Positions 23,126-64,000 of a stretch of DNA of 64,000 nucleotides are shown in pieces. Below the pieces are notes generated by a model, which worked only from the letters and a program-made list of their open reading frames with translations, searched no databases and had not been told where the DNA came from. The DNA comes from Balanoglossus misakiensis (Eukaryota; Animalia; Hemichordata): positions 8,439,573 through 8,503,572 of the forward strand of contig CM082594.2 of the NCBI GenBank assembly GCA_040954595.2. Reading direction: 5' to 3'. Numbering within the stretch: position 1 is the stretch's first letter; every line of letters begins with the position of its first letter. A program made the translations under genes and the position numbers.

Positions 23126-23258
23126 ATGGCGGAAGATGGCCAGTTGGAGTTCAGCGAGCGTGCCATTAGGGATTTTCTAGTAAAAAACGGGGGAAAAGTA
23201 AAAAACGAAGAGCTGGTGAAGACGTTTAAACCGTATTTGAGTGATCCTGATAATAAAG
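23126..23258 (+). CDS. Sowah: Sowah (sosondowah ankyrin-repeat protein) coding exon 1 (MAEDGQLEFSERAIRDFLVKNGGKVKNEELVKTFKPYLSDPDNK)
   Basis: ATG in context aatATGG; matches the Sowah N-terminal pattern FS..AI..FL...GGKV.N..L...FK..L. Donor G|gtaaac, 133 nt, phase 1. Position next to Irx supports the call. Confidence 0.9.
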
Positions 23259-24174
23259 GTAAACGCATTATCCGTGAATTGCAACGTATCACGTCGTGCA
23301 TTGCACTGACACGACCTCGACAGGACTACCCAGTACAGTACATGTAAATGCATGTAAGTTTACATGGATGTACATTTCAGTGTACAGCAGAATTTAAATG
23401 GAAGGGTGGACAGCAGTGGGCGCCTTTGTTAGTTTTTGAGTCGTGGTTCTAGTATATTTAAGAGTTAACATTTTCCCGTTGGTTGAATGATAATAATATC
23501 TAGTGTAGTGTGATACTCGAGTTCAATAGCTTCACAACAGGGACGCCTGTACCATGCCTGTACATAGTGAAATGCTATCATTATGGAACCCTATTACGTT
23601 ACAATGACGTTTTGATAATAATGGAATATACGACACGGGGTGTGTCTAAATTATGTTGTTGTTGCTGAGTACGTTTGATTGTAGGATAATATATGTACAA
23701 CTAAAAACAATACTATATACAAGAGGAACGAATTTGTTTGGATAATACCAGCTTCATCAGTCATTGATTGATTTCAGTGATGTTTATTCATAATGAGACT
23801 GACCAATTCATAAATGAAACTCTACTTGCTGAAGAAACTATACTCATATAAAAGCAATCCATCTATTCACTCTAAAGCAATTACAAGATTTTTTATCTGA
23901 CATACTCCATCAGTGAGTAGTTATTAACTGTCTGTGACCATTAAGTCTCTGTAAATGTACAGATGTTTATGAAATATGATCTGGAATGACTTTATAATTT
24001 ACATAGAATTCTGTTGTACATTTATAATGTAATAATAAAACAGACTACAAAATACACACAATACAATGTACATACACATGCAACTCTTGTGAACAGGATA
24101 GGTTCATCACAGTTTCCTCAATTCATAATGCAGTTCATAAAATTAAAGGTCGGGAAAAAGTTTCCCCTCCATCA

Positions 24175-24281
24175 AAAAAAATAGAAAAAAATAGTGGGAG
24201 ACTCCTTGAACTTGACCAGGACTTGAACCTGGAACCCCAAGTGTCAGGGTTCTCCCCTCTCACCATTACTCTACAAGATTT
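24175..24281 (-). mobile_element. tRNA-derived SINE head or degenerate tRNA pseudogene
   Basis: Minus strand has A-box-like TAGAGTAATGG (24273-24263) and B box GGTTCAAGTCC (24229-24219), 44 nt apart as in tRNAs, followed by T-runs. Cloverleaf stems pair poorly. Confidence 0.55.
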
Positions 24282-24376
24282 CTTGTAAGAAAAGTTGCAT
24301 ATCTCATTTGAATATCAACAATAATTTTGAAGCGACACAATGTGCATACTCACAGAAATACATGTATATGTTTATG

Positions 24377-24469
24377 TACATACATACATACATACATACA
24401 TACATACATACATACATACATACACACATACATACATACATACATACATACATACATACATACATACAT

Positions 24470-24502
<33 letters not shown>
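24377..24502. repeat. (TACA)n then (CA)n microsatellite
   Basis: Seen directly; explains the YIHT/MYVC ORFs. Confidence 0.97.
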
Positions 24503-25025
24503 GAGCACCTGGTAACAGTTACGCCGGTTGAATTGCATTGTTGTTAAGTTGTCTTAAACTTTGTAAGCCCAAGACAGACTGTGAGATTGGATTTAATATG
24601 TCTAAGAGTCACATGAGTGTGTTGATGCAGTACAGTTGTCGTAAATGTCAAGCAATAAGAATATTAATATGAGCAGGGTCAGCCTTTATGAATTATCAGA
24701 ACATTTTAAAATTCCAGTGAGACGTCAACTTACAGTGTTCAACATGTTATTTAGTTTTGCTAGTCCCAAGGTGGCAATTTGTATTCTGTGTGAAATTATT
24801 GTATACTTTGTAGTGTACGGTATATTTTTATGTTCATGTACTGTATTACAGCAATGTACATCTGGAGCACATAGCACAATATAACTGTTTGTTGAACTGA
24901 ATAAATTGTTAAAAATTATGTAAAATGATTTTGGCACCTTGTGAAAAATATCAGAAGGCCTCAGTTGCTCAGTATATACAGTGTCTGTTATTTACCTGTT
25001 TCATATTTTTGTTTCCTTCATTCAG

Positions 25026-25087
25026 CGAGAAATCGAGAAAAATTCAAGGAGTATGTGAACAGAGTTGCTACTATAAAGACAGAGGAG
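25026..25087 (+). CDS. Sowah: Sowah coding exon 2 (ARNREKFKEYVNRVATIKTEE)
   Basis: Acceptor tttccttcattcag, donor GAG|gtaagt, 62 nt, phase 1-0. R..FK..VN.VA is a conserved Sowah N-terminal motif. Confidence 0.9.
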
Positions 25088-26509
25088 GTAAGTCCATGAG
25101 GTTCTTTGCTTGCAAGTTTTGTACAGTGAAAGCAAAACTTGCTTAAAAGTCTCTCTGTGAAAAAAACTTACTCCCGGAATACGTGGAAATCAGACCTGCC
25201 CACCCCACAATATGGTAGATATTAAGAGCAACAGTGATGTGTTGTTGTGAGCAGTTACTGTGTGTATATACATTGCCACCCATCAGACGTGTGCCACCAG
25301 AACCTGCTGTTCATGTTTCATGTAGAAAGAAACAAGTGTTTTAGTAATTTCCCATCGAGGTCTGAATATGGCTAAATTGCTGTCTGGATTTGACCACCAA
25401 ATACTAGCTTATGATTGAAGGGTTGCAGAGCAAGGAGGAGTGATGCATTGTGGGAACAGGGGTCGTGGTGTACATTAGGATGGCTCGAGAGCAAAGTTTA
25501 ATTTGCAAGCAAGGGCAAGATCACCGTTGTTAGGTGACTTTTGAATAAAGCCAGAGTTCTTAAACCACAAAGCAGTCAATTGAGCACAAAGCTAGCAAAA
25601 CATTGTGATGAGCTTAAAAGTCAAGAGCCTTCATGTGTTGCTCATTAAAGTTTAGACACTCTGCATTGATTGACAAGGTGACAGCTGTTACCGACCTCTT
25701 TGTGTCACAATGTTTTATGATTTCAGGGTTGCTAGGCTTGTCATTGTGGGATGGGACCCGTGTTCTTACCAAGCTTCCAACATAGCTGCCATTGTCTTAT
25801 GCATGTAGGGCCTGGCTAGAAACATTGCGTTTTGATTGATTAAAGTGTCAGTCTGTTTGTGTGTACTAGAGGAACAACAACAATGGCAGATCTGGGGGTG
25901 AAGTTTGTAATGGGTACAAAGTTTTAATAGTTGTTTTCTGAAGTTTGTAAGGGTTTTCAAGTGTATGGTTCAGTATCAGTATCAGCATTGAGGGTTTATT
26001 TGCTGTTTATTCTTTCACTGTTAAAAATCCCCTGAATTAGCAATGATTATGGAAAGTTAAGGAAAGTCTTACAGGATTTTTCCTTTCATATCTGCCATTA
26101 AGTAATGAATGACAGTGAAGTCATCATACAAAACACTTCAAAATTTTATGCTAAATCACTCTTCAAAAATCTTTTATTACGATCACATTAAAGTGTCAGT
26201 CACTTTCCTTTAGTCTCAGTGTTTGTGAAATTTCAAAAAAGGTTCTGATCGTCCTTTTCACTTCTTTTAATGGATTGACGTGCTAGAAGAAGTGGCAGAC
26301 ATATTTCCTATTTTTTATCGCGGTAAAAGTGCTATTTTTATGAGTAGAAAATTTTAATGTGTGATATTTTCCTGCTGTGGAAGTGTTATTGTGCATTTAT
26401 GCAAGTCATAATAGCCATAATTCATGTTTGATATTCCGTTTTTGACGTTTCCTGAAAAGTGTTTTGACACTTTCTGACACATGGTTTTTATGTATGCTGT
26501 AAATTTCAG

Positions 26510-26617
26510 GGTGACAAGTATTTAGTTTTGAAAAAGAAATACCGGGAGCCTGCACAGAGGGAGTTGACGGAACCTGATGGCGGCCACGATAAAGAAAACC
26601 AAAATCAAGAAATTACA
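26510..26617 (+). CDS. Sowah: Sowah coding exon 3 (GDKYLVLKKKYREPAQRELTEPDGGHDKENQNQEIT)
   Basis: Acceptor tttcag, donor ACA|gtaagt, 108 nt, phase 0-0. G.KYLVLKK completes the N-terminal domain. Confidence 0.88.
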
Positions 26618-29600
26618 GTAAGTATGTGTGTATGAGGAATAAAATAGTGCTTTAAAGAGGATGTCTGGTTGTGGTGTTGTGGTATAGACTGCATTTCAGG
26701 GAGAGATCAATATCTTATGTCACAACGAGAATCAGTTGTCACTAACAGTAGCTGTAACTTTTGGTGTATTTTTTCGAAGTTACATGCTGTTCAGACACTT
26801 ATTCTCATGAACTTCAGTGTTCAAAGTCAAATGACATTAAAGGGGTAGTTTTGATCATAATGAGCGAGGTGCTGGTATTTGTGCAGATGTTCCTGCTCAT
26901 AAAGACACTGATAAATGTTGTGTCAATAAAAATCCATTTAGTTTTACTCCCTGTGACATATGATACACTGAAGTTTTCTCTCTCTCACTTGGTTGTGACT
27001 GTGTTTTTTACAGATGGTTTTTCCATCATAATAGTTTGGCGCGTTCTCACATCTGGTTATGTGCCAGTTCGGTCGTGGTGTTGACATGTATTTTGTCCAG
27101 TCAGACTCATTGTAGCAGTTGGTTTTGTCCCAATTCTGCTGTGAGAAGTACAAGGTGATTGCTTTTCGCTGGTCTCATTGAGGGGGTTCAGACTGGACAG
27201 TTTACGCCGATAAGACAGTGTGTAAAATGGTGGTTTGTGGGTAACTTGAGTACGGTGGAGTCTGTCCAAATTCAAGTACCACTACAGTGCGGACATGGCC
27301 CATATCTATTCCCCAAAGGACAGTCTGTTACTTTGTGTCGCCCTAAATTTCAGTCGGATTAATGAATGTGAAGAACGTTATTGTCAGAACCTGCGACTAT
27401 CTTTTCACACTGGGGTTTTGTCGAGAGGGTGTCCTCACAATAGCCAGGATGTTCGCCTGTGTCACAGGTCAGAGGTTAAGTGTAGCTTGTCAATTATCCG
27501 AGGAGCTATTTCGGAAGAAAAAACACAAACACATGGTGTTAAGGTGTCACTGATGACTTTTTTTATGACCATTTACATCAGGTCAAGGTCTTTAAGTAGC
27601 CCATCGCTGCTGTAAATTATTGGGATGCTTAGAACAGAAGGCACAAATGAGACAACGCGTTTCTAATAAGTTCATCGAGAGTTTCCGCGAGAGGGGGGGG
27701 AGTTGTATAGGGGTCAGATGCTTTTCCTGTATTGTTTGCATTATATTTGTTACTCGTATTACAACAATTTCTCTTACACTTTGACTTGATATTTCTTAAC
27801 TCTTTTTTATGATTGGTGAAGTGTGTGTAATTTTGAACTCGGAGAAGTGCATGTAACTTGTTTAGGTTAGAATACATCTCGTAACAGTTAGGAGCGACAG
27901 CGTCTATGGTAACAGTAACACCAGAAAACGGAACAAGTTGTGTGTGCCAACGCTTTTAAAGAAACATATTTAATAAAAAACCTGATATCACATCAGTGGT
28001 TGTAATTGATACATTCAGTTACTCCTGTTTTCATGGCAACCAAGTTTTCACCTGTCTAACTTATTTCCCGAAGTGTTCTCGTTTCTCGACGACATGTCAT
28101 GGCGTACCGATCAGGTTACATGTACATGTGAATACGAACAAATTTTTGACAGTTTCCTGTGTTTGCGTATCAATATTATCACAAGTGAGTAGCTGTGGAT
28201 GTAAATATGTCTAAGCTCAATTTGAGTCGGATGAAAACTGGGAGAAAAATGCCCTGATGCACTTGAAGTGAGCGTGGAATGATGGATGGGTGTACGAACA
28301 CATTAGCTTCTGTTTGTATATATGCATGGATTCTAATAGTAGCCCACTGTGACTTCTCGTTTCATAAATTGTAGAAATATACAGCGTACAAAATAAATTA
28401 TACAAAGAAAATAACATGAATGAAACACTGCATGTGAAAATTGAAGAAATGTTGCTTTTTTGTCGCGAAAAGGGGTAATCAAAACATGCATGTGTTATGA
28501 TTACAACTAAATACAAGCACTGAAACAGCCACTGTTTTCAGTTGGCTTAGAGGAGCGTGAATTTTTTCTCACACAAGCATCAGCAAACTGATGTCAAAAG
28601 AAAAGTATTTTCCCTTTAAGTTTTAAGAATATCACAGTTGCTAATATTTTGTGGTACATCAGGTACTTGTCCTTCAGGTCAACTCAAGAATCTTTTTGTG
28701 TGCCAAAACGTGATTCCCTGCATGTTTACGCTAACAGTGATTCGAATATTGTCACACTGGATTGCGGGTCACATGAGTTCTGACAACAAGAAAGAAATCA
28801 GTGTATGTTGTACAACCAGTCCACTCAAAGGTGTTAACATCTACATCAAATACTCCGCACCTAACATGTTTTTCCACGTCCACCGCCTGTCTGCCTCAAG
28901 TGACAGCTGACATGTAACCCCCACACAAACCTTTATGTTGACAAGTTTGCTTATTACTAATTCTGTGCTCCTGCCCTTCTTCTGCCACTTAGCATATTTC
29001 AGCTGTTAAACTCTGCGCTGCTGCGTGTCAGCGGTGTTCGGCAAACATGTCACACCGCGATTACAAGTACCTGCTACTCCAAACAGCATGTGAAATCATC
29101 ATGTCTGCTTCAACCTCAGAACAAATGCATTTACAAGTTGCACGCAGAAACACTCACTGACTCAAAAAGTTTGCAATATTCATGAATGTGAAAGAATATG
29201 TGCGATCGCCCAGTTGCCCTCTGAAGTACATGTACATGTATGTACAAACAAATATAACAAGAATGACATGATACTGTTATGCTATGATCCTATACTGTAT
29301 GCTTTTGTATGACTGTGTACTGTTACGCCATAATCCTTTACTGTTCTTTTGGCCCCATAAATTCTCTCAGGATAGAGAGATTTGTTCTATTCATGTATTA
29401 TCCCTGTGAATTCAGAAAGTTAACGTCAGATCAAGCGATCTTGCCTTTTAACAAGCTTGTGCTCAGTGTTTTCTTTCTGTAGATGATATTTGAAATTCAT
29501 TAGTCTTATCAGAACTTGGCATACTCTGCTTGGCCTTTCACTTTCTGCCCAGGGATAGTCATTTGAATTTATATGACACTCAGTTGTGATTACATCTGTC

Positions 29601-32600
29601 TTCGAAGTTTAACATTTAAAAGATATTTAAACACAAAATATACGACTGTCAATGTGCTTTCTGCCTTCAGCGGTACATTTCTATTTTAAAACGGCATCTT
29701 GTCTCCGTAATGACATTACTGACCACATCTTTGAGGGGCTGCATGGTGATTCTTGCGTGAATGGAAAATGGGGTTTCTGACTGAAATTGTGAAATAAATT
29801 CTAAAAACATATAGTCATATACATGAGGAATTTGAAGATGTATGGTTGATTTCTTACCCTGATAATTCTGATTCTAGAGGAACTGTTCATTGATTGTATA
29901 CTATAGGCTTTACCCTCTAAACGGGAGCAACATGGCCGCTTGGTGCTATTTTTTCCTAGACTGATCCAGGTACATGTGATGTGGATGAGTTGGCAGGCAC
30001 TGTTATAGTCCGTCCTTTTATCTTATTTATTACTAATCAACACTCCGATGTCACATGTAGAAAGTAGGTGTCAATACGATTCATCCACATGTATTTTAAG
30101 TAATAAAACTCAGTTAGATTTCCCTAACTGTGGGCATTCACTTTTGAAATACAAATGCCAGGCTCATGTCTTCCCCTGTAGAATTTAATCCGTTCAACAC
30201 CATAGTCAACTTGTCATTTTTCACTAAAATTAACCTTATAGCTTTGACTTTCTGTGATAGTAATAGTGGTAAAAAAGAAATAGCCAGAAGATACAGCTAG
30301 TGTAGCTCGAAGTGAATTTCTATTTAAGTATCAGTTTCTTATTCTGAGTCACCAACTTATCTTTGTGTAATCAAATTACTGGGCATTTGTCTTTATTTTA
30401 TACCTCTCACAAGAAGTGACTTTTAAAGACTTTATCTTGTATACACACATACGTACGTCGTTTAACCCAGCAATCCATTGTGTGACTGAAAGACAAGCTG
30501 TGGGTTTGACTTGTCAATTTGCTGCTTACGTTACCAATTATTTAAGAGATTGTGTGGAAATAAATGTGGCCTTGTTTGTGTGATTTTAATTGCTGAATGG
30601 GTTTATGGAATCATGGTCAAATAATAGTTGATTGTCATCAAACTTTATCTGGTTACGAGAGCCATCGTCTAAATTTCTTTATTATATTATGTTAGATATG
30701 TGCAGTGCTCTTGAAAAACCACTTTCACATTGTCAAGTGCGTACACTATGTCCCAATTGTCATCGTCATAGCGATGAAACCAAACTCGACTTGGAATCTT
30801 GTCGGTCTTGGTGCATTGTCCTTTCACTCGCACATTTGCCTGATACTGGTTTAGCTTGTTGAAACACTTGTCTATTCACTGGACTGATCAGGAATCGTGT
30901 AGTTAGCATGGTTCACTCACTGTATCGTTTTATTTCAACTGGTTGAATACATGCATACAAGTATGTAAATCTTATTTGTTCCCAGTCAGAGAAACCATCT
31001 CTAAGTTTGCTTGGGTTGTAGTGCCTCGTATCCGTATGATCTATGAATTTTCATCCGTCGCTCCTAAGTAAACCGTACCCAGACTGCCTGGTAATTAAAT
31101 GAGAATTTTGAGATTTCCATGTATGTAAAGGCAAACTGGTTTCCCCCAAATTTAAATTACAATGTCGACGAATGTTGCTAAAGCCAGCTTTGCATTCCTA
31201 TAGCGAATCACAGAGACAAGCGAAAAAAGAAACTGTAATCAATGGACTAAGTGCTGTATTTCTTTTTTTCTCCCTGACGTAAATGTCTGTTTGTGTAGCG
31301 TGTATCTCGCTTGATTCCTTCATTAAGAGTCAGTTGCCAAACTCCAGTGTGGCGTTATGTAGATGGAGACACAATTCAAGGAAAGCTTTTCATCAGCTTA
31401 TCATACCCTTTATGAGGGTGGCTTGCATGTCTGTGTTACATCAAATTAAACATGTTCGGTCCATTCACGAACAAGACTATCCAAGTCCGGAAACCAAGGC
31501 CAGCCAGTTCTTTTTTTTCCGGCTTTTGTGTTGCCGGGTCCAGGCGCAGGTTTTCAAGTCTACCCACACAGTAAAACACTAACATTTCAATGTGGGAACA
31601 AATGCCCAGTCTCCAAAAGACTGTTGGGAGACATGTAGTCTTCTCTATTGTCTTACAGGGGAGACAAATAGCACAGATAATGCCCCTGTTAGTCTTTTCT
31701 TTGTTTCTTGTTTGGAGTCCCCCCTATTTTGTCTGTGATTAACAGCAATTAACTGTAATTAAGTAAATGATTTGAGGCAGTTTGGGAGACAGGATGGTGT
31801 GAGGGGTAATGATAAACAGATATGTAGACCTGCATCTACACGTAATTGCTTAGAGATAAATATTTATCCTAAGTTGGTGATGGTAATTAGCAACCCCCCT
31901 AGACATTGCCTTGTACAGTAATAGGATTCTTGGTCAGACAAAGGCCTCTATTGCCGCCTTGGCTACTGCGAAATGATGGAGAGTGTATGAACGACTCCTT
32001 GACTGGGGGGGACTTGCTAATTGTGTGAAAAATAGAAGGCTAATTGACACGTACTTTAGAAGAAAACTCAGAGTCACTCAAACTACCATATTCCCATGTC
32101 ATCTTTACAGTTCCAACACAGACTGATAATTATGGAGTCTGTTTTTCAAAGGACAATAAAAGGCCACGGAACAAAGAGAATCTTTTTCAGTATGTCGTGA
32201 TTACATGTAATTTTAAAGTAAAACAAGTATGATGGATCGTGTGTGACGTCTATCGGCGTAGTTGGTCTGAAATTATATTCATGGCATAAACTGAGCCTCC
32301 TATTCCTACCGGAAAACGTGATTATTTAGAAATCTGTTTAAATTCACACGAAAGATTAACCAGTTTAGGATATGTTTTAATGCAGGGCTTTCTTCACTTG
32401 TTAATCTCTAAAGCCATCCTAGCTGTAATTCAGTTTCCCACTTTGAAGAATTTTGATTTGCCACTGTGAAATTGTGGTTATTTCACGATATTCAAAAATG
32501 ACACAACAATGGTAACTGGCAGATGAACTCTCTTTCTCTGTTTGAGTTGATAAAATTACCATCTATAGACAGATTATATCTGATGAGATTGTACAATATT

Positions 32601-32822
32601 AGACATGAAAAAATATTCTGTTAATGTTTTATCTATTCCCAAGGGGTAGGATTAGCCTGTGTGTGACCATTAGGGGGGTTATTATTAGCGTTTAGTTCGG
32701 AAAATGTTTGCGGAAGGACTTATGGTTGGGAGAGGGGGGAAGGGACATGGTACATTTGTTCATGTACATGGATGTATTGTGGAAATAAAGTGTAGAAATT
32801 GTAAATGGTTTTGTTTTTGTAG

Positions 32823-32981
32823 ACCGGGGATGTTATGGAGGAAGAGATGCAGCCAGAGAACGAACCTGAGCAGAGTGATGTGAAGAAAAGAGTTTTAGAT
32901 GTAGCTCAGTCATTTGAGAAGAAGGCAGAAGAGGAGAAAGCACAGGCAGAAGCAGCTTGGGTTTCACCTACAAAGATTCAG
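32823..32981 (+). CDS. Sowah: Sowah coding exon 4, acidic linker ([53 protein letters not shown])
   Basis: Acceptor ttttgtttttgtag, donor CAG|gtatgt, 159 nt, open, purine-rich, phase 0-0. Confidence 0.82.
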
Positions 32982-32995
32982 GTATGTTCTGGATA

Positions 32996-33394
<399 letters not shown>

Positions 33395-33599
33395 AGGAGA
33401 GAGTGTTAATATAATTGCAATAATCAATGTCAGACAGAACAGGAGGTTCTTCAGAAAACATAATTAAAACCCACAGTAGTACTGTTTAATGACTAATCTC
33501 TGGGTAACTGTTTTTTCCCCTCACATTTTATTGGCTTCAGTATGGTTCAATGAAACCTTTATGAAGTACCTCAGTAATGATAATATAATTTTGTTTCAG

Positions 33600-33656
33600 C
33601 GTGAAGAGGATGGCAACGATGATGAGTCGGTATCTTCAACAGTAACCGTGGTTACG
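33600..33656 (+). CDS. Sowah: Sowah coding exon 5 (REEDGNDDESVSSTVTVVT)
   Basis: Acceptor ttttgtttcag, donor ACG|gtaagt, 57 nt, phase 0-0. Confidence 0.8.
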
Positions 33657-35958
33657 GTAAGTGTTAGAAACCTTTAATGTACACTTTAGGTGTCAGAGTG
33701 GTATTGCATACGGTTGTATAATGTAAATAGCTGGTGTGTTAGTTGTTGTATCGAGTTCTGCCATGACATGTGTTTATATACAATTTGACTCGACTGTGTT
33801 TAGTGAATTGGGTGACAAGTACTGGTATATTGAAGACACCTGCCCAACATGACACATATACATGCTGGGATCTAGAGTCAATTCTGGACGTGGAAAGAAC
33901 GAAAAAAAAACCCACAAAAGTGATCACTTGGCCATTCAGGACATCTCAAGTTGTGATTGAGAGGCAAGCATGCCCTACACTTCTGAATAATGGAACTGTG
34001 TTGAGTGTTACCCCAAAGCTGTAATTGTCCGAGAAATTTTCCTGCGCACACAATGGCTACTTCACCAAGTTTGTGTTTGTGTTCAACACGCAAGCGTAAA
34101 TTCGGGCTGGGGTTCATTTTGCATTTGACAGCAAGAAATGTGTTGTCATGGTTACTGTAATCTCCCGTGAAATATGGAGATGTGCATCTGTACTGTTTTT
34201 TCTTTTCATCCCCTTTCCCCCCCCCCCCCCCCCCCCCCCAAAAAAATAAAAAATAAAAATCCAGCTTTCAGGGATGGTTAGTCAGTGTCAATGTAGACAC
34301 AGTGTACCTACATATACATGTGTTTAATCATGCAAAGAGGGTAAAATTTCTAAAATTGCCCTTTGATAAAAACCATCATGAATATGTGTATGATAGCCAA
34401 GTGCTTGTCATACCCGAATGTTTACAAATTATCTGCGCTGTGACATTGTCAGAATAATGGAAAACAAGCTTCTTCACAAACAGAACCCGTGTTTGTATAT
34501 TCAACACACAATTAGATGACGAGAACATGTACTGCATTATGGGCCGTTGCCACTGATAACAAATTTATCATTATTATTAATATGGGGAAACATCAGTCTT
34601 GATTGGAGAAAGGATCGACTTGTAATCAATGTCATGATATATTAATTAAGGATGTAAAAGTGTTGATTAGGGACAAGACGGTTGAAGTCTCGGGGGACAT
34701 TTGCAGGTTATAGACTTAACTTTTCTCATTCAGCTTGAGATGTCTAATTCTGCTGGGCAAGTTTAATGATGTAGTTAAAGTCCTGTCTTATATTTTGAAT
34801 TGATCCCAATATGTTGTGCTCCAGTAAAACGTCTGTAGCACAGGTTTTTGGGGCGAATAATAAAAAAAAGAGACAATGTGTTGATCGCTATTAAAAGTTT
34901 TGAATGAAAAACCAGTTTAGGGGAAAATTTTGCATGGATATCTAGGTCATATTGGCTGTTTTAGAAAAAGCGAGTTGTCTTTATGTTCGCAATGACCATA
35001 TGCCATGAGTGTAATTATTCTTGTTTTATGCTTTTTTTCTTTGTGATCGGTTTGTGTTTGTTGAGAGAGGGGAAAAATAATTGCCAGGAGTCGTGCGAAG
35101 ATTAATAAATCTGCGGGACTTTCATCGGGTTTCGATCAGCGTGTGAGGGAGCTTGTCTGTGTGGGAGGTTTTTTAGGAAACAGGCAGCGACTGCCTCGTG
35201 GAGGATGTGGGTCTGTATGTGTCTTTGTGTTGCGGATTGGGGTCAGGGCATGTGAGACTACCACAGTCGGTCGTTGGATCTCTAACCTTGTGTGTGTGAC
35301 ATTTTCCCCCCGCGATCGAGGGATAGAATTGCCATTCCAGTCATACTAACCTATGTATCAATATCCGCTGCCACTGTCTCTAAAAAGATTAATTAGCACA
35401 GACGTTGGTGTTAGTGACATCAAAAGCCCGGCAAATAATGTCGCCAAAATTACTGGACTTAAATCATCGTGTATGACAGAAGTGTTATTGGTGCAACTGA
35501 TGAAAGGGGGATTTGGCGGCAAAGCCATGTGGCTCCAGTTTGAAATGAATACTCTAAGACGTCGGCAGTTTGCAAAGGCCAATGTGAAGTCAGCTAATCC
35601 CCATAACTCTAATCCTATAAATAGACAAGAGTGGTAGAATTTGTTAGTCTCTGCTTAAGACTATTCCCTCTATCATAACAAATCCGTCATTTTCATGCAT
35701 CAACATCAGAAAATAAATAGTACTTTGAGTTTGACCGATGAGTCTTGAAAGAGGAAAAAAGTCTCTGACATTTGCCTCCCAAGATCTTTGCCGGCCAGAC
35801 TAGAATTACATTTATATGGTCAGCCATGGGAATTGTGAGATCGGCTGCAAGAAAACCAATCTGTATGGCATGTTAAGTATCTGTGTTTTATGTATGTGAT
35901 ATATGTACATGTATATACATAGTGTGTTTGTATGTGCATGTGTGTATACATGTGTATA

Positions 35959-36164
35959 ATGTATGTATGTATGTATGTATGTATGTATGTATGTATGTAT
36001 GTATGTATGTATGTATGTATGTATGTATGTATGTATGTATGTATGTATGTATGTATGTATGTATGTATGTATGTATGTATGTATGTATGTATGTATGTAT
36101 GTATGTATGTATGTATGTATGTATGTATGTATGTATGTATGTATGTATGTATGTATGTATGTAT
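35959..36164. repeat. (ATGT)n microsatellite, about 200 bp
   Basis: Near-perfect tetranucleotide array, seen directly. Confidence 0.98.
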
Positions 36165-38160
36165 AAACATTAACCAAATTAGGTGGGAAATGGTGAAAAT
36201 AATTGTAACACCTACAAGTAATTTCCTTAAAGTTGTGACAGTTAGGTGAAGATATATCACTTTCCTCAAAGACAAAAGTTGTTAAAGGAAATTGATTGAA
36301 GGAATAATGTAGAGTGTAAGTCAGTGCAACTTCAAGGATTAAGAGATTTTCACTGAATTACGCTTGCTAGAAATTGATTGAGATGGGAGCCTTCCTTGTC
36401 AGCATTCAGGAGATGTAAATATTTATAATGGCGCGACATGTACAAATCTTGGTGAACTTGATTTTTTAGACTCGTTTTAAAGCTTGTTTGACACACACTC
36501 ACACACTCACACATGCACACACACACACACACACATGCACGCAGTCTGTATAACAAACTATCATTAACCTGAATGGCTGTTTATACAGGCACTATATTTT
36601 GTCTCATATTAATACAATTTTGATAGCAAAGCAGGTTGAGATCACTAGCTATTATGCTTATGCTGATTAATTTTCCAATTTGCTGACTCTAACTACTGCC
36701 CTGCTTCTACTGCCGTCTCAAATTTTTAATTTCCTTTTTCTGACTCAACCTTAATAGTCTGGCTGTTTTGCCATGACATTGGGCATGGCGTGTTTCCATT
36801 GTTGATATGCAGTAATAAAAGCTAACTATTGTACACAGCTCTGCTGACTTCTAATTTTTTTCAGATGCAGAGTTTTATTCAGTAGTGTAATGATACTGTC
36901 AAAACAACCTGTTGTTTCCTCTTTGAACTTGTCATTGCAGAAGTTGACAATGAACTAACAGATTTTGCAAAAAATCAAACCCTTTTCTGTGTTTCTCTAT
37001 ATGAGAAATAAACAAGGCACTGACTAACTGTTGGTTGATCTCAAAATGTCAATGTTTATTCTAATGTTGATGTTATACCATGATGAATTTGGGTCTCTGA
37101 CCTCTCTACATGTCCAAATGGAGAAACATGATATAATTACTTTCGTATTAGTGATCTGGCAAAGTGATGATTGTTGCAAACCATTCCTTTTGCACTAACA
37201 GAGGCAGTAATGCTAATGTTTTCTTTAATTTTCATAATTTTTTATTCCGTATACGTATCATAAAGTTCCTTTCTTTGCTTCATAAATCATGTTTAACACG
37301 GTGTGTGATTTGTTTAACACAGCCAGTGTGTATTTAGCCAGTATTGTTATTGTTGACAGTTGAATTGATGTTCAGACATAAATTCACTTGTCAACAATCA
37401 TTGTGCTCATTCAGCTGCTTAAAAAAAACTAAACCAAAAAACCTGGGTTATGTAAATATTTCAGTTACAGCTATTTTCCTATTTTGTAACCTTGAATTTC
37501 TCTGAAACGGTGGCCTTGCAATATGACCCGTCAATTGAATGAATGAAAGAAGAATTAATTGTATTATTTGGGATATAATGAAATTTGAATGGAAAATCAG
37601 GTTATGAAAACATGTGTTTCACAAATATGGCAATTAATATGCAGGTTTTTGATTAAAAAATCTGGTTTGTACTATTAAGAAAGAAAATCAATGGCTAGCT
37701 GCATTGACATACTTGTACATGTGTAACACAGGTGCCGAGAATTGTTGGTAGAAGTTTACATGGTGATTTTAAAACTAATAAAACATTTAGCGGAAACATA
37801 ACATGTTTTAGAACAAATAAAAGCGTAGCATTGACCAACTGCTGTGAGTGAGTTTGGACTACTGTGTGAGGCCAAATTATAACAGGGGGTAGTCTGTAAA
37901 TAGATTGTGTATTACAATTTTCATGTTTTAATGCTTTCAGTGAGAACTCTCAGATTTAAAATGCAGTCGGGGACTTTGATAAAAAGTTAACATAGTAGTG
38001 AAAGCCTGAAAGTGGTTGAAGAGTTAGTGATGCACAATTTGACCCCTACCCCAGGGTCTCATTGTCCTCACATGTGGTAGAGTGTGTATCTGGGAGTTTG
38101 TCGTTACCCAAGGGCTGTTTTAACAGTGTCATATTACTGAGCCAGATGCTAAATATGTAT

Positions 38161-38330
38161 GTGTTATGTGCATGTGTGTGTGTCTGCCTGTCTGTCTGTT
38201 TGTTTGTATGTCTGTTTGTTTGTATGTCTGTCTGTCTCGTGTGTGTGTATGTATCTCTCTGTCTGTGTATGTGTGTGAGTGTGTGCGTGTCTGCCCATGT
38301 CAGTATATGTGTATTTGTGCCTGTGTGTAA
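38161..38330. repeat. Degenerate TG/TGTC low-complexity tract
   Basis: Seen directly. Confidence 0.8.
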
Positions 38331-39186
38331 TGTGCCAAGATTTAAGGTTTATCTGTGTGTTTGACACTGACCATAAATGTTTGGTGTACATGTATTATTG
38401 CAATATTCAGCAAACTATGTATCCACTGGGATTTTCCAAAGAAAGCGGATATCTTTATGTATAATTTTATTGACTTCATAAAAAGAACTAACGCCAAAAA
38501 TACAAGAAGTTGATATGTGATAGAATTTTATGTTTTATCGAGTTGTTATATTGTGTATAAAAGTTTGATAGGATGAATGATTTATGAAAGGGTCAGAAAT
38601 ATGTCATCTTTGTGACATAATTTGGATTATTGTTAAGATTATTTTTGTTTTCTTTGATAGTGTACTGTGCAGACTCATAGCATAGGATTGATACACTTTG
38701 AAAGACTCATTTGAGAAAAGGGTCATAAAGGTGTGTGCTTCTTTCAATAAACGTGGCTTTGATTAAAAATCATGAACTCTCTAATTAGTAAACTGGAGTG
38801 CTGACAAGCTATTGGATTAATTACATGATAACTGGATTGAAAGTTGAGCTCATGAATTTGATTCAGTGATTATTGCCCTGATTTGATTATCTGTGTTTCA
38901 TTAATTATAACGCTGTGTTTCACTCCACATTATACAAGTAAGTCTTCAAGAATTGTGAAGGGGACGGGTCGGGTTGGAGGGGAAGGGGGGGGGGGGGGGT
39001 ACATTGGCCTTGACATGACCTGTACTTGAAGAGTTGATCGGGTCAAAAAATCTCACAAACTCAATCCGCTACTCAGACTTGAACTTGAAGATAGCAACCC
39101 AGGTCTCCATTCTAAGTGATACTGATCACAAAACTCCAAAAGTTGCTTGTAACTCAAAATTTTGTGGGCGTGCAACACTCAGTTGT

Positions 39187-39279
39187 TTAACCCTTTCACC
39201 CCCTGTCTCCTCTTTAGTGGTCCAACCTTACCATAGAAAATGATGAGTTTGGGCTGAACCATGGTAGTGAGAAGGTTAA
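39187..39279. mobile_element. Short TTAA-flanked MITE-like element
   Basis: Left end TTAACCCTTTCAC and right end GTGAGAAGGTTAA are inverted repeats (11/13 match). TTAA-CCC termini resemble piggyBac-type elements. Confidence 0.5.
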
Positions 39280-42200
39280 GCAAGAGTCGCATTGCTCGAC
39301 ACGCTATTTTAGGATAATTTTTATAAGACAGCAATAAACACTCGATGTAACCATCAAATCAACCCAGTGCCAGTAAAAACGGAATGATCTTGTTTATGGT
39401 GTATTTAACAGTTCCTTCATTTCCCCCAAATTGTCGACTCCCAGTCACTGAAGTGGCTCGCCTTACACTTTATGACGGCCTGTTTGGGGTTAATACGGCA
39501 TATTAGAGGCTTCTCAAGAATGTAGCCATGTTTTCCCCATCAAGTGCTTCCCATATACATGATTGGAATTTATCTAACATGCCTAAGGGTGATTTGATAC
39601 TGCGCTTTTAAAAATATCATTTTTTTTTTGCTTACATTGGAACGTCAGTGCGATACCACATACCCGGGTAACCCCCTCCCCCACCTCTTCCTCCCCAGTT
39701 CCCCCAACTACCGATACATGCCACCCTCCGCTCCAACCTGGCTCCTAAATCTGATTTTGAAATTACCAATATCGTCTTGTGTTTTCTTTCCCTGTTTGAC
39801 CCGACAGAGTGAGTCAACAATTATTGCATGCGTTTGTTGTTCGACAAGAAACGGTGGTATAAAGGCCATATTTGTTAATAATCAGCTGATGTGCAGGGGT
39901 CGCGAGGGGTCACTCTCTTCAACGTGTTAACCAATGATCGGGAGCACCAAGTGTTGCCCTACAATAGTCGGCGGTAACAGAACACATTGGCAAGCTGGCG
40001 TCTGACGAGGCGCCACAGCCACGCACAAAAGCTGACGGTCATTCATATAGTTGTTTAGATCAACAGCATAGACGAGAGGAAGCGAGCGTGCTAATCAATA
40101 ATTAATCCTTACGACGAGATCTGCTCTTCATTGTTGTCTTATGTCAGATCATATTAAGCATGTCTTCATTGAACAGAGAAGCCAGCCTGTTGTTGTGCCT
40201 GGCTTTAAAGAAGAGAGTGTGTGGGAAAAAATTCTTGGATAACTGGTGTAGCCATTGAAAGTAACAGTTCGGACTTTGATAGTGGAATTCTATCAATACC
40301 AAATATTGATGACATAGTTTGCGCTTTGATATAGCTAGGAACGCTCTCTGGGCTATTGTCGAAGTTTGATATTTAGTCAGGCCTGAGCCCATTGTTCGCC
40401 GACTAAGATGGAATTTTTAGCCGGAATAGTATTAGACAAAATGAATTTTTATCCCTGATTGCAAAAAGAAAAATCTAATCAGATGAGCGGGGTTTGGGTT
40501 GCAGCTGAAATTGATTTCATTTAACTCTTACTACACAACAAATAATGATACATTATTGTATGACGGAGTACTTGAGTGTGTTGTGTGTTGTATCTGGGCC
40601 TGCTAATCCTATCTCGCTCGAATCAGTCATAATGGTGGTTGCCAGCACCAGTTTTCACAACGCCAGATTCGCGCTCTAATCATCCCTTTATTGTGTACAC
40701 ATACAATGTTTTAGTTATCAACCTTACAAGGGTATACATCACTAGCTGTATTAAGTGCATACATTTCTTGTCAGTGCTTTTATTTCTGTGTTAATTACAC
40801 TTATTATGATGGACCATGTACATGCTTATTTCTTACCCACCCTTCCTCCCCGAATGCTTTCCCTATTTATCTGTGTAAAGTGAATTAGATTTTCCATCAG
40901 GCCTCTCCGGAATACTCCCCTCGGTTTGTTGCCGTTGAAATCCCGGATATTCAATGCCTGTGTTATTTTCCATGCATTACTTTGACACAAGGAATTCATG
41001 ATACTCGGGGTTGACATGTGTGTTTGCACGGGTCCCATTGACAGTTTTATACTCAATTCCCTGACTCTCAATCCATTCTACTCCCTAGTGTTGGTTCATC
41101 TAAGCTACTGAAATTGGAAAACATTCTTTGATATGTGTTTTATGAATATATTTCACCGTTACCACCTGCCTGATTGAATTTATACTGGCCACGATTTACA
41201 TCGCAGTATATTTCCCCTCGCTTGCTCGTACAGTATTGCCAGCTACAAGTCAACTGCACATTCTCTGGATGATAATTGATATCTTGGTGTTTCGAGGCAC
41301 CATTTCGTGAATGTTCATTTGAGATACCATGCACAGTATAAATGATCTTTTGAATCAAAATACAACATGTGGTCAGCATACAACGTAATACTGTGTCACC
41401 AAATCCAATATGACACACCACTGATGTTAACAAAAAAACTTGATACAATTAATTTTTCTCATGTTGAGCTGATGCATAGAAACTTTCTTTAATTTTGTTT
41501 CAAGTTTCTAAAAAGTCATATCACAAGATCACACAGACTTTATTTTCCAAATCAGGTTCATGTCATGAATCGCTGAGTGTATTTCATTTTGTCCTCGCCT
41601 GACCTCTGGCAAACTAAGTTCCATTTTTTGACCCTCCTCTCTCTTTGGTGTCCGCTGTTGTAGTCCCAGTGGTTTTATATTAATTTGCATCTTTTTTTTA
41701 AGTCCCGTTGTATATTTTGCCGCTTGATTGCAGCTCGAGTGACTCCCAATACTTGCATATGTGCCACCGTCAATGAGAACACACAAAGCGTCTAGTCTTT
41801 GTAATTTACCTTTCTTCCACGCATTGTTCAGACTGAGATCACATTTCGTTTTATTAGATTCTCCTTTCTCCCTCTCCTGTTTTCTACCAATGTAAAGTGT
41901 TATTTGCTCTTTTGTATCCGGAGGTCGAGGGTCGGGAGTCAAACCAGGCAGACATAAAAGAATGTGGAAATGAAGACCAGCTGCAGGTTTCAGTTCTAAT
42001 TTACAACTCCCTTCACTTCTCTCCCTCTACTCTTCCTATCATTTGTTATCTTTGTGTTTCCTTTCCCACTTTGTCCCTAATACAGCTTTCCTCTCGTCTC
42101 CCACTAAATAAAAACCGGCCATTGATACGAGGAATGTCCCGCATCTCTGCTCTCAATGCCGACGACTAATTTCTCCTCTCTGACTTTTACAGCATGCCTT

Positions 42201-42653
42201 CCTCTTGCCTGCCACGGACTCAAAATATTTTTATTTTCAGATTAATTTTTGTGTCGTCATGGTGACGATGGATGGGTAGAATAAAGCCAATATCTTAACA
42301 CCCATAATCCCCGTTAACAAATAATTTTTCTTTTTTTATATATATTTCAACGCATGTTTAGCATGGTGACTTTGAGGGCACAGAATGTTTGGATGTGATA
42401 ACCATGTGTTTTGGTTTACTGGTGGTGTGTTGCATGTAACACGGTCTGTTTTGGCATGTAATTACAATGTAAATCAACCCCAGTATTAATTAATGGTCTG
42501 TAAAGATATTTTTTTCAGTTTTAATAGCTCGCCTTATTTTTTATCCCACTGTCTTTAATTGGAATGAAGAAAGGATGGCTTTGGGTCAGTTTTGGGGGTT
42601 TAGGTATAGGAACTCATTGCAAATGATATTAAATATATTACTTTGTATAATAG

Positions 42654-42764
42654 GATGATATTGACCGAATCAGTGATGTTGTTGGAGACAACAGCGAGAG
42701 TTCTCAACCTGCAGTTTCATCTGGTGCCGTCGATGAGAAAGCTCATCATTTTGCAAATATTGAG
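42654..42764 (+). CDS. Sowah: Sowah coding exon 6 (DDIDRISDVVGDNSESSQPAVSSGAVDEKAHHFANIE)
   Basis: Acceptor ctttgtataatag, donor GAG|gtaaca, 111 nt, open, phase 0-0, 145 bp upstream of the next exon. Splice sites are weaker, so it may be alternative. Confidence 0.62.
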
Positions 42765-42909
42765 GTAACACGATGTGTAGTCAAAGTTGGTGTATCTTCC
42801 TAACTCATCTAACTGCATGACTTCACAAAAAAAAGAATTAACAGAGAAAATTGGAGGATTTGGTGGAATTTTAATTTTTTCCTCTTTTTTTTATTTCTGG
42901 AATTTCCAG

Positions 42910-43011
42910 TTAAACGAGACGGAAAAGAAATGGATGTTTGAATCAGCGGAGGGCAATACCACTATGCTAGCGTCGCTCTTGGTCAATGAACCAAACCTCT
43001 ACAAACAAAAG
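42910..43011 (+). CDS. Sowah: Sowah coding exon 7, start of ankyrin region (LNETEKKWMFESAEGNTTMLASLLVNEPNLYKQK)
   Basis: Long pyrimidine tract and tttccag acceptor, donor AAG|gtaagt, 102 nt, phase 0-0. L...E..W...A.G......LL...P.L...K is the segment that precedes DF..G.TALHW in Sowah proteins. Confidence 0.9.
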
Positions 43012-60000: not shown

Positions 60001-60470
60001 CAAGTTATTGCAGTGCAATATCTAGCAGCCACAATTCCCCAATCATTGTAATTTTGTAACACCCACACGCTGCAAATTCATTATAGCTCTCATAACAACT
60101 GCACTCATGAAAGGCATTCAACTTCTTATAGCATTTACACTTCAAAGTCATGTAATTTTCATATCACTTAATTCATTCGTGGGACACAACCCCCATCCCC
60201 CCTCTCTCTGTCTCTCTCTCTCTCTCTCCCAAACACCTGTACTCTCTGTGAAATTGATCATGATTGTAATTCTGCCGACACCCACGCTCAACAAGCTCAC
60301 CGCAATTTTCCCAATACCCAAAAGTTGTCTCCTCTCCTGTGGGACTTTTACACCTGCTGGCTCCTCAGAACACATTTCACTTAACCCTTTCAAGTTCGTA
60401 TTTTAATCAAGTTTCCATATCTTTCTTCTCTTTTCTTTTTCATGTGATCTGCCAATCTGCCGGAAAACAG

Positions 60471-60482
60471 GACTTCACAAAT
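60471..60482 (+). CDS. Sowah: Sowah 12-nt microexon (GAC TTC ACA AAT = DFTN)
   Basis: cag|GACTTCACAAAT|gtaagt, phase 0-0. Supplies exactly the DFxx expected after ...LYKQK and before GxTALHW. The following exon was not found and is presumably beyond the window. Confidence 0.82.
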
Positions 60483-63094
60483 GTAAGTTTTCTTTCATAT
60501 ATATATTTTGTTGAAAAGTAAGTACATGTAACTGCATTGTGTCACTGAAATAAATAAGTCTCCGTCTATTAAACATCGTCCAGCATTGAACCCCGGCTTT
60601 TTAACCGTGCTTTAACCATTGCAACAAAAGCCAAACTACCATTAGACGCTTAACTTTAATAACCCAAACAGTTCCGGAGGTCTTAACTCAAATTTGCATG
60701 ATAGAAATATCTGCCTTTTGTACGATACGTGTAGTTTTGCTCCGAATACAAGCGACGATGTGTTCAAAAGGAAGCCAGGGAATCGGTAGTAGAACTTTTA
60801 TTTTTACTTCTTGTTTTGTCGTCGCTCTGTTCCTTCGCTGTGAAGAGGTTTCTATACGTGGTGGGAATGTTATGTGGGAGGGTTGATGTGTTACACTGTT
60901 AAAATCGAATCACTGTGTGTGGAAGAGACACAGCCCAAGACTAATCTCGTTTGTGCTCCTGTGATTAAGAAATTTGCATTCAAGCGAATAGGATACGGGA
61001 GCCTAAGTCTGTAAACTGGTTAAATTCACTGAAAAGGGAGGTGGGGGAACTTTTTGTGAAAGGCTAAAGAAAAGCGAGTGGACAAAGTTGAGCCGGACAG
61101 CTTTGTAGTGCCGACAAGAGAAAGTGATGCATGGTCTACACCAAATGAGGGGTGGATAGTACAGCCTGCAATTTACATGTACTCATTAGAAAAACAAGAA
61201 CATTTACACAGTCCGACTAGTGCAGAATAAAAACCGGCAGCTGTTTCACAAATTGCTCGTATTGACAAGTTCCTAAGCCGCTCTCTCATAAATCAGTCCG
61301 ATCCTACACATTTTCCACTTTCAAATCGGACCAGAACGGTAGTTTAAATACTCCTAGTAAAAAAAAAGTTCGCCCCGACATTTATTGTTGGTGTCTGTCT
61401 TATTATGTGCGGGAGACCAGCTGTCACTTCATTGCGTTTTCTTTTTTCTCTGACACCATCCAAGCTAAACAGGACGACATCAGTTATTCTTGGCCATTGG
61501 CAAGGAATCAGTCAATCACAAAGGTGTGACTGCTCTAACAGCTTTTCTATCTCCAAACATAAACAAACTGGCACAAAGAAACCGGTACAGTCGACAATAA
61601 CCTGCATGGCCCACAGCTTTTTGCCGCTGTGGCTATTAGTACACACCCTTCAAAAAAAGTAACCACTGGCACAGTGACTCGCAATCTACTTCAGCGCTGA
61701 CTTTTCCATTTTCTTTTGATTTGCTTTTATTCTTCCCGGCTTTGTCCGTCGGGCTGCGCCTTTCACCGCCATGGTGCCGTGGACATATATACCTACATGC
61801 CTGACTGAATCTGTTTGAAAACCCACTACCGACTCAACCACTCGGCGCACAGGGGGTAAGTACGAGCAATTGACAACACAGACAGGCCTTTCAATCATCC
61901 TGACTGCAGCCAAAGAAAGGGTATCTTTCTTGAATACTCCTGAGAGAGCCCGAGAGATAATAATATTATGAATCCACTGATAGGATGCCAATGAGTTGTT
62001 ATACATGCTTATTTAGCCGAGGAGGAAACGGTGATGAGATAGTGGGAGAGAGTGAAGGCCAACTTATGCTGTAGTCATTAGGAATAATGAGCAAGTTAGT
62101 TAAAACTGGCATTTCATTACACATGATTATTACCACGGCGTCAAGTCATCATTCTTATCGGGCTCATCTCGTCTCTATCATTAGAGATGTGTAGGACATC
62201 CATCATTACCTGGAGGAGAGGAACAGGCAGCGTCTGTGTATGCTGCTGTGACTCAAAATTTTTTTTCTTCTTCGAATATCCCTTGCAAGTCGGCATTATT
62301 GACAAAACAGTCTGTCTGGCAAAATCGTGTCAGATCTTGTCTTACACCGGTCACATCATTGTAGTTATTCATGTCATACATTCAATTCAATCAGCACTGT
62401 TTATCCCTCATCTCAGCTGTGTGTACACTTCAACAACCCTTCTCCCTTTCAACTCAGTTGTGACATCATCATTTCCCTTCATCAATGTCAGCATATTTAA
62501 AAGTCACCATCAGAAAAGATTTCCAGCGTACTAAACAAAGATGTTCATTTTCCAATGTAATTTGGCCGACTTCCTTAAGTCAATATTGTATTCCACTTTA
62601 ATTGAGTCCAAATTGATCCCAAATTTCGTATTAATACAGAAAATGTGGCAACTGGAACATTCAATTCCTACAGGAGGATAGTGTATAATTAAAACCATAC
62701 AATTTATTGGCACTTAAACAGTTTTGCTTTATACGACTCGAAATCGCTAATGTGATTTTCATCTTCACTTGTAGGAGTTGAGATTAGATTGAGGAAGTGG
62801 GAACAGATGAGGTCACAGTTGATGATTATTTATTTGGTGCCCTTTCGTAGACTTTGCCAACAAAAAAGTATGACATGGCTGCTACAGGATGTCACCACAA
62901 AAAGATGGATAATTTCTAGGCATCTACGTTGGTTCATTAAGTTTTACAAAATGTTAACATTGAAAATTACAAAAAATAAATGTGAATAGCAATAGTACAG
63001 GTGTTTTCGCAGCTGAGCTAGGTGCCATACATCTATGATTGTATAATACAAATATTAAGAATTATCTAAATATTTGTATTAACACAATTAGGAG

Positions 63095-63095
<1 letters not shown>

Positions 63096-63134
<39 letters not shown>

Positions 63135-63184
63135 ATTTATGTATGTATGTATGTATGTGTGTATGTGCATGTATGTATGCATGT
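63096..63184. repeat. (TG)n + degenerate (TATG)n microsatellite
   Basis: Seen directly. Confidence 0.92.
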
Positions 63185-64000
63185 AAGTTCCAACAGGATC
63201 TGTTAAATCACTATTCAAAGCTTACAAATACTCAAAAATTTAATTTGTCAAAAGAGACCCTTTAAGATGTTCAATTCACTATACAGAATAATTGGATATC
63301 ATTGCTTTGAATTGGTAAACACAGCACCACTATGCTCTACTGACTCGTAACACAGTGTTACAGAGACAAACATGACCTGTACATACAAACTGTATTACTT
63401 CCTACAAGTGTGGTCAAATTTGCAAATGAAAATCCTTGTGAAGTTTCACAGTTAGATTAAAAGTAGAAGTCGGGACATCAATTTCTGTTGGTCGATAAAT
63501 TACAGGAGATCGCGAGTTAATACAAGAGACAAAACAAAGGAGAGAAAGGGATAGTATCTGATTTGAAGTGGAGCATATAAAATGTAGACATGGGGTCATG
63601 AATGCAAGTTGTGAACTGACAAGTTTGCAGATTAAACTGGGCTTGTAAATAAATGAAGAGTTGATGAAATAGCCGGCGTAATCAGCTGTAACTTGCGCTG
63701 ATCAGGCGGTAATTGGAACTGTGCTCCGTGAAGAGGCCCCGAGTAATTTGCCATTGGAAATTTAATTGTACCACTGTTCATGTTGGAAAAGTTAAATAGT
63801 GGTGTGCGGCGATGAGGGGAATGAAATCACCCAGACGCGCTCGTTAATCTCCGCGCGAAGAGCAATCGCTGGCAAATCAAATTGACTTCTGTTTGGATAT
63901 TCCTGTTATATATTTGACGACATTTCCACTCTCTTGCCGTCGGGGTCAGATAAATTGTCAATACACTTTTTATGACGTGGCAGCTTTTTTTTTCCTCGAC

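What the first reader, a model, noticed from the sequence alone, without database searches (positions are those of the whole stretch)
60380..60488. 12-nt microexon (DFTN) in Sowah, 17.5 kb from the previous exon, with SRRM3/4 (eMIC)-type upstream architecture
Seen: cag|GACTTCACAAAT|gtaagt with a perfect donor. Upstream are branch-like CTTAAC (60380-60385) and TTTAAT, a pyrimidine tract displaced away from the AG (60412-60441), no AG between 60412 and 60468, and two TGC trinucleotides at 60450-60452 and 60458-60460. A TGCATG (RBFOX motif) lies downstream at 60695-60700. Established: Sowah proteins read ...K-DFxx-GxTALHW at this point, and neural microexons activated by SRRM3/4 eMIC domains have UGC near the 3' splice site with an extended upstream pyrimidine tract. 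Inference: skipping keeps the frame but deletes four residues of the loop leading into an ankyrin repeat, so this could be a cell-type-specific switch. Automated annotation usually misses such exons. I cannot tell whether it is constitutive or already described in orthologs.
Basis: partly seen in the sequence, partly recalled or inferred. Interest (0 to 1): 0.8.

Follow-up and report, generated by a model that had tools for sequence, protein, structure and literature searches.

The report
Ancient microexon chain in acorn-worm Sowah
A 12-base stretch with strong splice signals in an acorn worm's Sowah gene is very likely a real exon, the first of a predicted chain of three tiny exons (12, 3 and 3 bases) that fruit flies also have and that is likely always kept to build one protein loop, rather than acting as a nerve-cell switch.

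Summary
The gene is Sowah of a hemichordate close to Ptychodera flava (82% identity), head-to-head with an Iroquois-type homeobox gene. The 12-nt exon (60471-60482) ranks first of 67 short-exon candidates by pyrimidine tract. Fly sowah has the same 12+3(Gly)+3(Tyr) chain, FlyBase-annotated, in the 128-row list matching the paper's constitutive class (PMC8042270), and absent from fly eMIC target lists. The eMIC-like layout is real, but UGC and TGCATG are common by chance. No RNA data were available, so inclusion here is untested. All six P. flava RefSeq models lack the chain: probably annotation failure, possibly skipping of the whole block. This scan found the same layout earlier in octopus and cartilaginous-fish DNA. 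Verdict: a real exon, a new member of a known ancient layout; neural regulation unsupported but not excluded.

The parts
60471..60482 (+). 12-nt phase-0 coding microexon (D-F-T-N), first of the chain
   Evidence: CAG/GTAAGT flanks; rank 1 of 67 candidates; same size and order as fly ME119. Splicing inferred, not shown by reads.
60402..60470 (+). 3' splice-site region of the 12-nt exon: TTAAT branch candidate (A at 60406, -65), pyrimidine tract 60412-60441, TGC at 60450 and 60458, pyrimidine-poor last 20 nt, acceptor CAG
   Evidence: best tract 20/20 ending at -29; proximal pyrimidine fraction 0.41
60380..60385 (+). CTTAAC, alternative branch candidate (A at -87), upstream of two AGs
60483..60488 (+). 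consensus donor GTAAGT of the 12-nt exon
61853..61855 (+).
   Evidence: cag|GGG|gtaagt; YAG-GGN-GTRAG in 4 of 200 simulations; matches fly ME3, GGC. Splicing inferred.
61695..61852 (+). 156-nt AG-free zone and acceptor of the Gly exon, with CTGAC branch candidates at -153 and -49 and a distal pyrimidine tract; no TGC in the last 40 nt
   Evidence: longest AG gap among the 1,230 AGs in 43012-64000; folds less stably than 196 of 200 shuffles
42910..43011 (+). preceding Sowah exon (34 codons, helices of the first ankyrin-like repeat), phase-0 donor
   Evidence: 82% identity to P. flava SOWAH-like residues 183-216
23126..43011 (+). 5' part of the Sowah gene: coding exons starting near 23126, 25026, 26510, 32823, 33600, 41924 (alternative), 42654 (alternative) and 42910
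   Evidence: tblastn with P. flava isoforms
60695..60700 (+). TGCATG, probably incidental
   Evidence: 13 copies in 21 kb; present in 12% of 220-nt windows

Best explanation
The 12-base stretch is very likely a real coding exon of an acorn-worm Sowah gene and the first of an ancient chain of three tiny exons (12, 3 and a predicted 3 bases) that are likely spliced in together in most cells to spell the hairpin loop between the first two ankyrin repeats. Shown: the splice signals, the reading frame, the Gly codon with its own splice signals 1.37 kb downstream, and the gene's identity. Inferred mechanism: an exon of 3-12 nt is too short for U1 and U2AF/U2 to sit side by side, so both exons pair a perfect donor with a branch point and pyrimidine tract moved 30-150 nt upstream across an AG-free spacer. 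That spacing would serve any microexon, regulated or not, and it produces the eMIC look. The Tyr codon exon and the TALHW exon are predicted to lie beyond position 64000. The long introns are likely retained because Sowah introns house Iroquois enhancers (published for flies).
For: Gene identity and phase. Candidate ranking. Gly exon with the longest AG-free zone and no proximal UGC, so the displaced layout occurs here without the eMIC motif. Fly sowah carries 12-nt, GGC and TAT exons in this order, FlyBase-annotated (PMC8042270 Table S4). They are in the unlabelled 128-row sheet of Table S5, which equals the paper's count of constitutive microexons, PSI = 1 in head, body, gonad and stage samples. 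FBgn0036302 occurs in no other supplementary file. None of five coordinates of these exons is among the 3,291 fly rows of PMC8797185 Table S2, whose only sowah row is a different 46-nt exon. The P. flava model lacking the chain aligns to a designed ankyrin with a 4-residue gap exactly at the hairpin and enters the Pfam Ank profile only at position 3. Fly eMIC programmes overlap little with other lineages. Recalled, untested: vertebrate intronless SOWAH retrogenes, which must derive from germline mRNA, keep the DFxxGY-type loop.
Against: No RNA evidence for this species (one search listed none). The 12-nt exon's acceptor fits the eMIC description on most points and is the only one of 8 Sowah exons or exon candidates examined with two proximal TGC; PMC8797185 states this layout is largely unique to eMIC targets and not general to short exons. 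Four of six P. flava RefSeq isoforms join the preceding exon straight to TALHW and two end in another terminal exon, which could be real skipping. The fly 'constitutive' call uses an exon-microexon-exon model and may miss skipping of the whole block (inference). Absence from fly Table S2 may reflect non-quantification, since these exons are in no group at all. The fly 12-nt exon reads C-P-A-T, so orthology rests on size, order and the Gly/Tyr codons, not on a protein alignment. The Tyr exon was not seen.
Confidence: 0.65

Rival explanations
1. The 12+3+3 chain is a regulated 18-nt block: Srrm234-eMIC acts at the UGC-bearing acceptor of the 12-nt exon, and outside neurons all three exons are skipped together, giving an in-frame Sowah without the ankyrin hairpin.
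For: eMIC-like acceptor on the first exon only. Four of six P. flava RefSeq isoforms show exactly the block-skip junction. An earlier scan note reports some skipping in a fish gene (e1-8669125, unchecked). Fly sowah has one eMIC-sensitive exon elsewhere, so the gene is within reach of the regulator.
Against: No P. flava model includes the block and none is full length: four run into apparent intron sequence right after the next ankyrin exon, where fly has another microexon (ME19), which looks like aligner failure at microexons. Fly exons are classed constitutive. Two TGC arise in 6.6% of comparable windows.
Confidence: 0.2
2. One reading: the 12-nt exon alone is a neural eMIC cassette, and skipping removes four residues while the Gly and Tyr exons stay.
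For: Same acceptor features. Removing four residues would leave a loop only two residues shorter than in designed ankyrins (arithmetic from the gap).
Against: No annotated isoform shows this pattern (0 of 6). This is the skipping event the fly analysis would detect, and ME119 is classed constitutive.
Confidence: 0.1
3. The site is a chance match inside a long intron and is not spliced.
For: About one YAG-N12-GTRAG is expected by chance in 21 kb. No transcript evidence, and the relative's annotation lacks it.
Against: Top rank of 67, the expected codons and phase, a Gly-codon partner in the right order (any 12-nt site followed by a Gly 3-nt site in 1 of 200 simulations), and the same layout in fly.
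Confidence: 0.04

Closest known systems
Drosophila melanogaster sowah (FBgn0036302) microexons ME119 (12 nt), ME3 (GGC), ME2 (TAT), ME19 (6 nt); FlyBase-annotated, PMC8042270 Tables S4 and S5
   Same: Same gene family; a 12-nt exon followed by a single Gly-codon exon, 1-3 kb apart; gene linked to Iroquois.
   Different: Fly 12-nt exon encodes C-P-A-T, here D-F-T-N. The Tyr exon and later exons are outside this window.
SRRM3/4 (eMIC)-dependent neural microexons (PMC8797185; bioRxiv 10.1101/2024.09.17.613571)
   Same: Length 3-27 nt, frame-preserving, strong donor, displaced pyrimidine tract and branch point, UGC between tract and AG.
   Different: Neural-specific inclusion and eMIC dependence, which define the class, are untested here and not seen for the fly counterparts. 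It sits in a chain of microexons rather than alone.
Ptychodera flava SOWAHB/C-like RefSeq models XP_070536602-XP_070536607
   Same: Closest annotated protein, 55-90% identity over six matched exons.
   Different: 0 of 6 models contain the 12-nt or Gly exon residues, and none extends beyond the next ankyrin exon into further repeats.
Iroquois-Sowah genomic regulatory block (Maeso et al. 2012; seen only through PMC12311624, PMC5803294, PMC5010895, PMC3342872)
   Same: Intron-rich Sowah next to a TALE homeobox gene (Homeobox_KN), with very long introns.
   Different: Enhancer function of these introns was not tested here.

Membership tests
Sowah (intron-containing, Irx-linked) | Sequence similarity to SOWAH proteins over the N-terminal domain and ankyrin region | tested here: met
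   only P. flava relatives were retrieved
Sowah (intron-containing, Irx-linked) | Neighbouring Iroquois gene | tested here: met
   Homeobox_KN E=1.8e-19 at 4709-4326 on the minus strand; the name Iroquois is my recall from the motif, not a tool label
Sowah 12+3+3 microexon chain | 12-nt phase-0 exon after the first ankyrin-helix exon | tested here: met
Sowah 12+3+3 microexon chain | Single Gly-codon exon next | tested here: met
   61853-61855
Sowah 12+3+3 microexon chain | Single Tyr/Phe-codon exon next | tested here: inconclusive
   no credible site in the 2,145 nt left in the window (one AG|TTT|GC at 63624 without a tract or donor consensus); no genome held
eMIC/SRRM3/4-dependent neural microexons | Length 3-27 nt and strong 5' splice site | tested here: met
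eMIC/SRRM3/4-dependent neural microexons | Pyrimidine tract and branch point displaced from a weak AG region | tested here: met
   tract ends at -29, proximal pyrimidine fraction 0.41 against 0.53-0.88 for the other Sowah exons
eMIC/SRRM3/4-dependent neural microexons | UGC between tract and AG | tested here: met
   -21 and -13; weakly specific and not strictly required even in true targets
eMIC/SRRM3/4-dependent neural microexons | Long AG exclusion zone | tested here: inconclusive
   57 nt: top 2.8% of AG gaps but close to ordinary Sowah exons, 42-51 nt
eMIC/SRRM3/4-dependent neural microexons | Neural-enriched inclusion | not testable with these tools
   no RNA run listed; fly counterparts classed constitutive
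eMIC/SRRM3/4-dependent neural microexons | Loss of inclusion without eMIC | not testable with these tools
   needs an experiment; fly counterparts not among listed targets

The most novel reading that the evidence does not exclude
In hemichordates the ancient three-microexon chain of Sowah has become a single neural on/off block: eMIC recognition of the UGC-bearing first exon licenses inclusion of two downstream one-codon exons spread over kilobases, and other cells make an in-frame Sowah lacking the ankyrin binding hairpin, the junction seen in the P. flava RefSeq models.
Probability: 0.2. Interest if true: 0.65.

Novelty: new member of a known kind. Interest (0 to 1): 0.3.

Why it matters
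It extends a layout annotated in flies to hemichordates, which suggests the one-codon exons of Sowah date from the bilaterian ancestor, and it explains why the RefSeq models of a close relative are broken. It is also a natural test of whether the 'eMIC code' can be read from sequence alone: here an acceptor with the full look belongs to an exon whose fly counterpart appears constitutive. If the block is instead skipped as a unit outside neurons, it would be a rare case of coordinated control over serial 3-nt exons. As it stands it is mainly an annotation correction.

Tried and rejected
No genome is held for the window, so the Tyr and TALHW exons could not be sought. No RNA holder was listed for 42600-43100. 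Three homologue searches and one HMMER search returned only P. flava Sowah proteins plus two unrelated hits, so no cross-phylum protein alignment was possible. The ESM Atlas gave only generic ankyrin clusters; no solved SOWAH structure was among 60 PDB hits. A degenerate exon-plus-splice-site pattern hit 2 metagenome loci (L001, L002); neither showed Sowah protein similarity, shared flanks or a 3-nt partner, so they were set aside as probable chance, though L002 is too short to exclude. My first idea of a single 6-nt Gly-Tyr exon found no site in the gene. Rfam found nothing in 43000-64000. No stabilised RNA structure at either acceptor (z = +0.80 and +1.73). A candidate aag|TTC|gtattt at 60395 was rejected (weak donor, wrong order). 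Full-text searches for sowah+microexon and sosondowah+microexons gave 0 papers. Maeso et al. 2012 and Torres-Mendez et al. 2019 were not held and may describe these exons. No structure prediction was run, because only the form lacking the loop was available as a protein.

Full report
Observation. All motifs are present at the stated coordinates. The preceding exon is 42910-43011 and ends in phase 0, so the 12-nt exon adds D-F-T-N in frame after a 17,459-nt intron. In 43012-64000 a generic 12-nt exon-like site is expected about once by chance, but one starting with an Asp codon appeared in 3 of 200 simulations and one starting Asp-Phe in 0 of 200 (patterns chosen after seeing the site). Ranked without regard to codons, it is first of 67 short-exon candidates by pyrimidine tract.

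The gene. The preceding exon is 82% identical to Ptychodera flava SOWAH-like proteins, and tblastn recovers the 5' exons from 23126 onward. The window is therefore from a hemichordate related to, but distinct from, P. flava. A TALE-class homeobox lies on the minus strand at 4709-4326, head-to-head with Sowah; I recognise it as Iroquois from recall. This fits the published Iroquois-Sowah block, in which Sowah introns house Iroquois enhancers (passages of PMC12311624 and PMC5803294).

All six P. flava RefSeq isoforms lack the loop: four join QK to TALHW, and two leave QK for another terminal exon. The recalled Sowah motif has six residues there, not four, so more exons were expected. A 6-nt exon was not found. 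Earlier scan notes suggested 12+3+3 and pointed to PMC8042270, and I tested both. A scan found cag|GGG|gtaagt at 61853-61855. Its acceptor has a 156-nt AG-free zone, the longest among 1,230 AGs in the stretch, and such a Gly site arose in 4 of 200 simulations. No credible Tyr-codon exon lies in the remaining 2,145 nt, so it is predicted beyond the window.

Fly comparison. Table S4 of PMC8042270 lists FlyBase-annotated sowah microexons in gene order: ME119 (12 nt), ME3 (GGC), ME2 (TAT), ME19 (6 nt), ME615 (27 nt). All five are in the unlabelled sheet of Table S5 that has 128 rows, the paper's number of constitutive microexons; the label is my inference from that count. The gene id appears in no other supplementary file. 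In the fly eMIC-knockout study PMC8797185, the only sowah row among 3,291 is a different, 46-nt eMIC-sensitive exon, and five coordinates of the microexons gave no hit. Caveats: the exons are in no group of that table, so they may not have been quantified; the constitutive call compares each exon with its immediate neighbours and could miss block skipping; orthology rests on size, order and codons, because no fly protein was retrieved.

Is the eMIC architecture meaningful? The description in the literature is a strong donor, a displaced tract and branch point, a long AG-free zone and UGC near the AG. The 12-nt exon fits: tract ending at -29, proximal pyrimidine fraction 0.41, TGC at -21 and -13. 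Against it, single TGCs sit within 40 nt of 3 of the 7 other exons or candidates examined, two TGCs occur in 6.6% of comparable windows, TGCATG is within chance, the AG-free zone is close to that of ordinary exons, and the Gly exon shows an even more displaced layout with no proximal UGC. UGC is found in about three quarters of true targets and is not strictly required, so it is a weak classifier. Both acceptor regions are no more structured than shuffles, in line with the accessible branch-to-AG regions reported for neural microexons (PMC12871342, abstract only), but this does not separate regulated from constitutive exons.

Protein role. The P. flava model lacking the chain aligns to a designed ankyrin protein with a four-residue gap at the inter-repeat hairpin and matches the Pfam Ank profile from position 3. 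The chain would supply the Asp and Gly that ankyrin hairpins normally carry before the TPLH-like motif (established knowledge of the fold). Skipping would remove part of the usual binding surface; whether the result folds was not tested.

Mechanism and odds. Most likely (0.65) the three exons are included together in most cells, with the displaced 3' elements giving the spliceosome room on very short exons. A neural eMIC-gated block (0.2) or single-exon switch (0.1) remains open, mainly because of the acceptor's layout and the P. flava skip junction. That junction more probably reflects annotation failure: no model includes the exons, and four run into apparent intron sequence just where fly has its next microexon. 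Chance is 0.04.

Novelty. The layout is annotated in FlyBase and tabulated in PMC8042270, and this scan has reported it in octopus and cartilaginous-fish DNA (AI notes, unchecked beyond the fly tables). Searches for sowah with microexon in main texts found nothing, but Maeso et al. 2012 and Torres-Mendez et al. 2019 could not be read, nor could bioRxiv supplements. The hemichordate instance is a new member of a known kind.

What I saw of each paper. PMC8042270: abstract, methods, first part of results, Table S4 rows, part 2 of 4 of Table S5. PMC8797185: passages, section 10, supplement index and searches. 10.1101/2024.09.17.613571: abstract, introduction, UGC section. PMC12871342: abstract. 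PMC12311624, PMC5803294, PMC5010895, PMC3342872: passages. Vertebrate SOWAH retrogene sequence: recalled only.

Noticed in passing
   Followed up: yes
window 41924-41986 (+): 63-nt Sowah exon whose P. flava counterpart is present in 4 of 6 isoforms. It has a weak GAG acceptor, a 20/20 pyrimidine tract ending at -45 and a TGC at -19, so it may be a better candidate for regulated splicing than the 12-nt exon.
   Followed up: partly
window about 42654-42780 (+): Second alternative Sowah exon with weak similarity to P. flava isoforms X1, X2 and X5; donor position not settled.
   Followed up: partly
window 4709-3042 (-): TALE homeobox gene (Iroquois by recall), head-to-head with Sowah; its first exon was not located.
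   Followed up: partly
P0002-P0007 (P. flava XP_070536602-7): All six RefSeq isoforms end at or just after the microexon positions, so the gene is probably mis-modelled or split in that annotation.
   Followed up: partly
window 32990-33400, 35820-36280, 63090-63185: Simple repeats (GT, CT and TATG/CATA types) inside Sowah introns.
   Followed up: no
L002:1204-1215: Metagenome contig with a matching 12-nt exon-like site and a pyrimidine-rich upstream region; too short to tell a Sowah exon from chance.
   Followed up: partly
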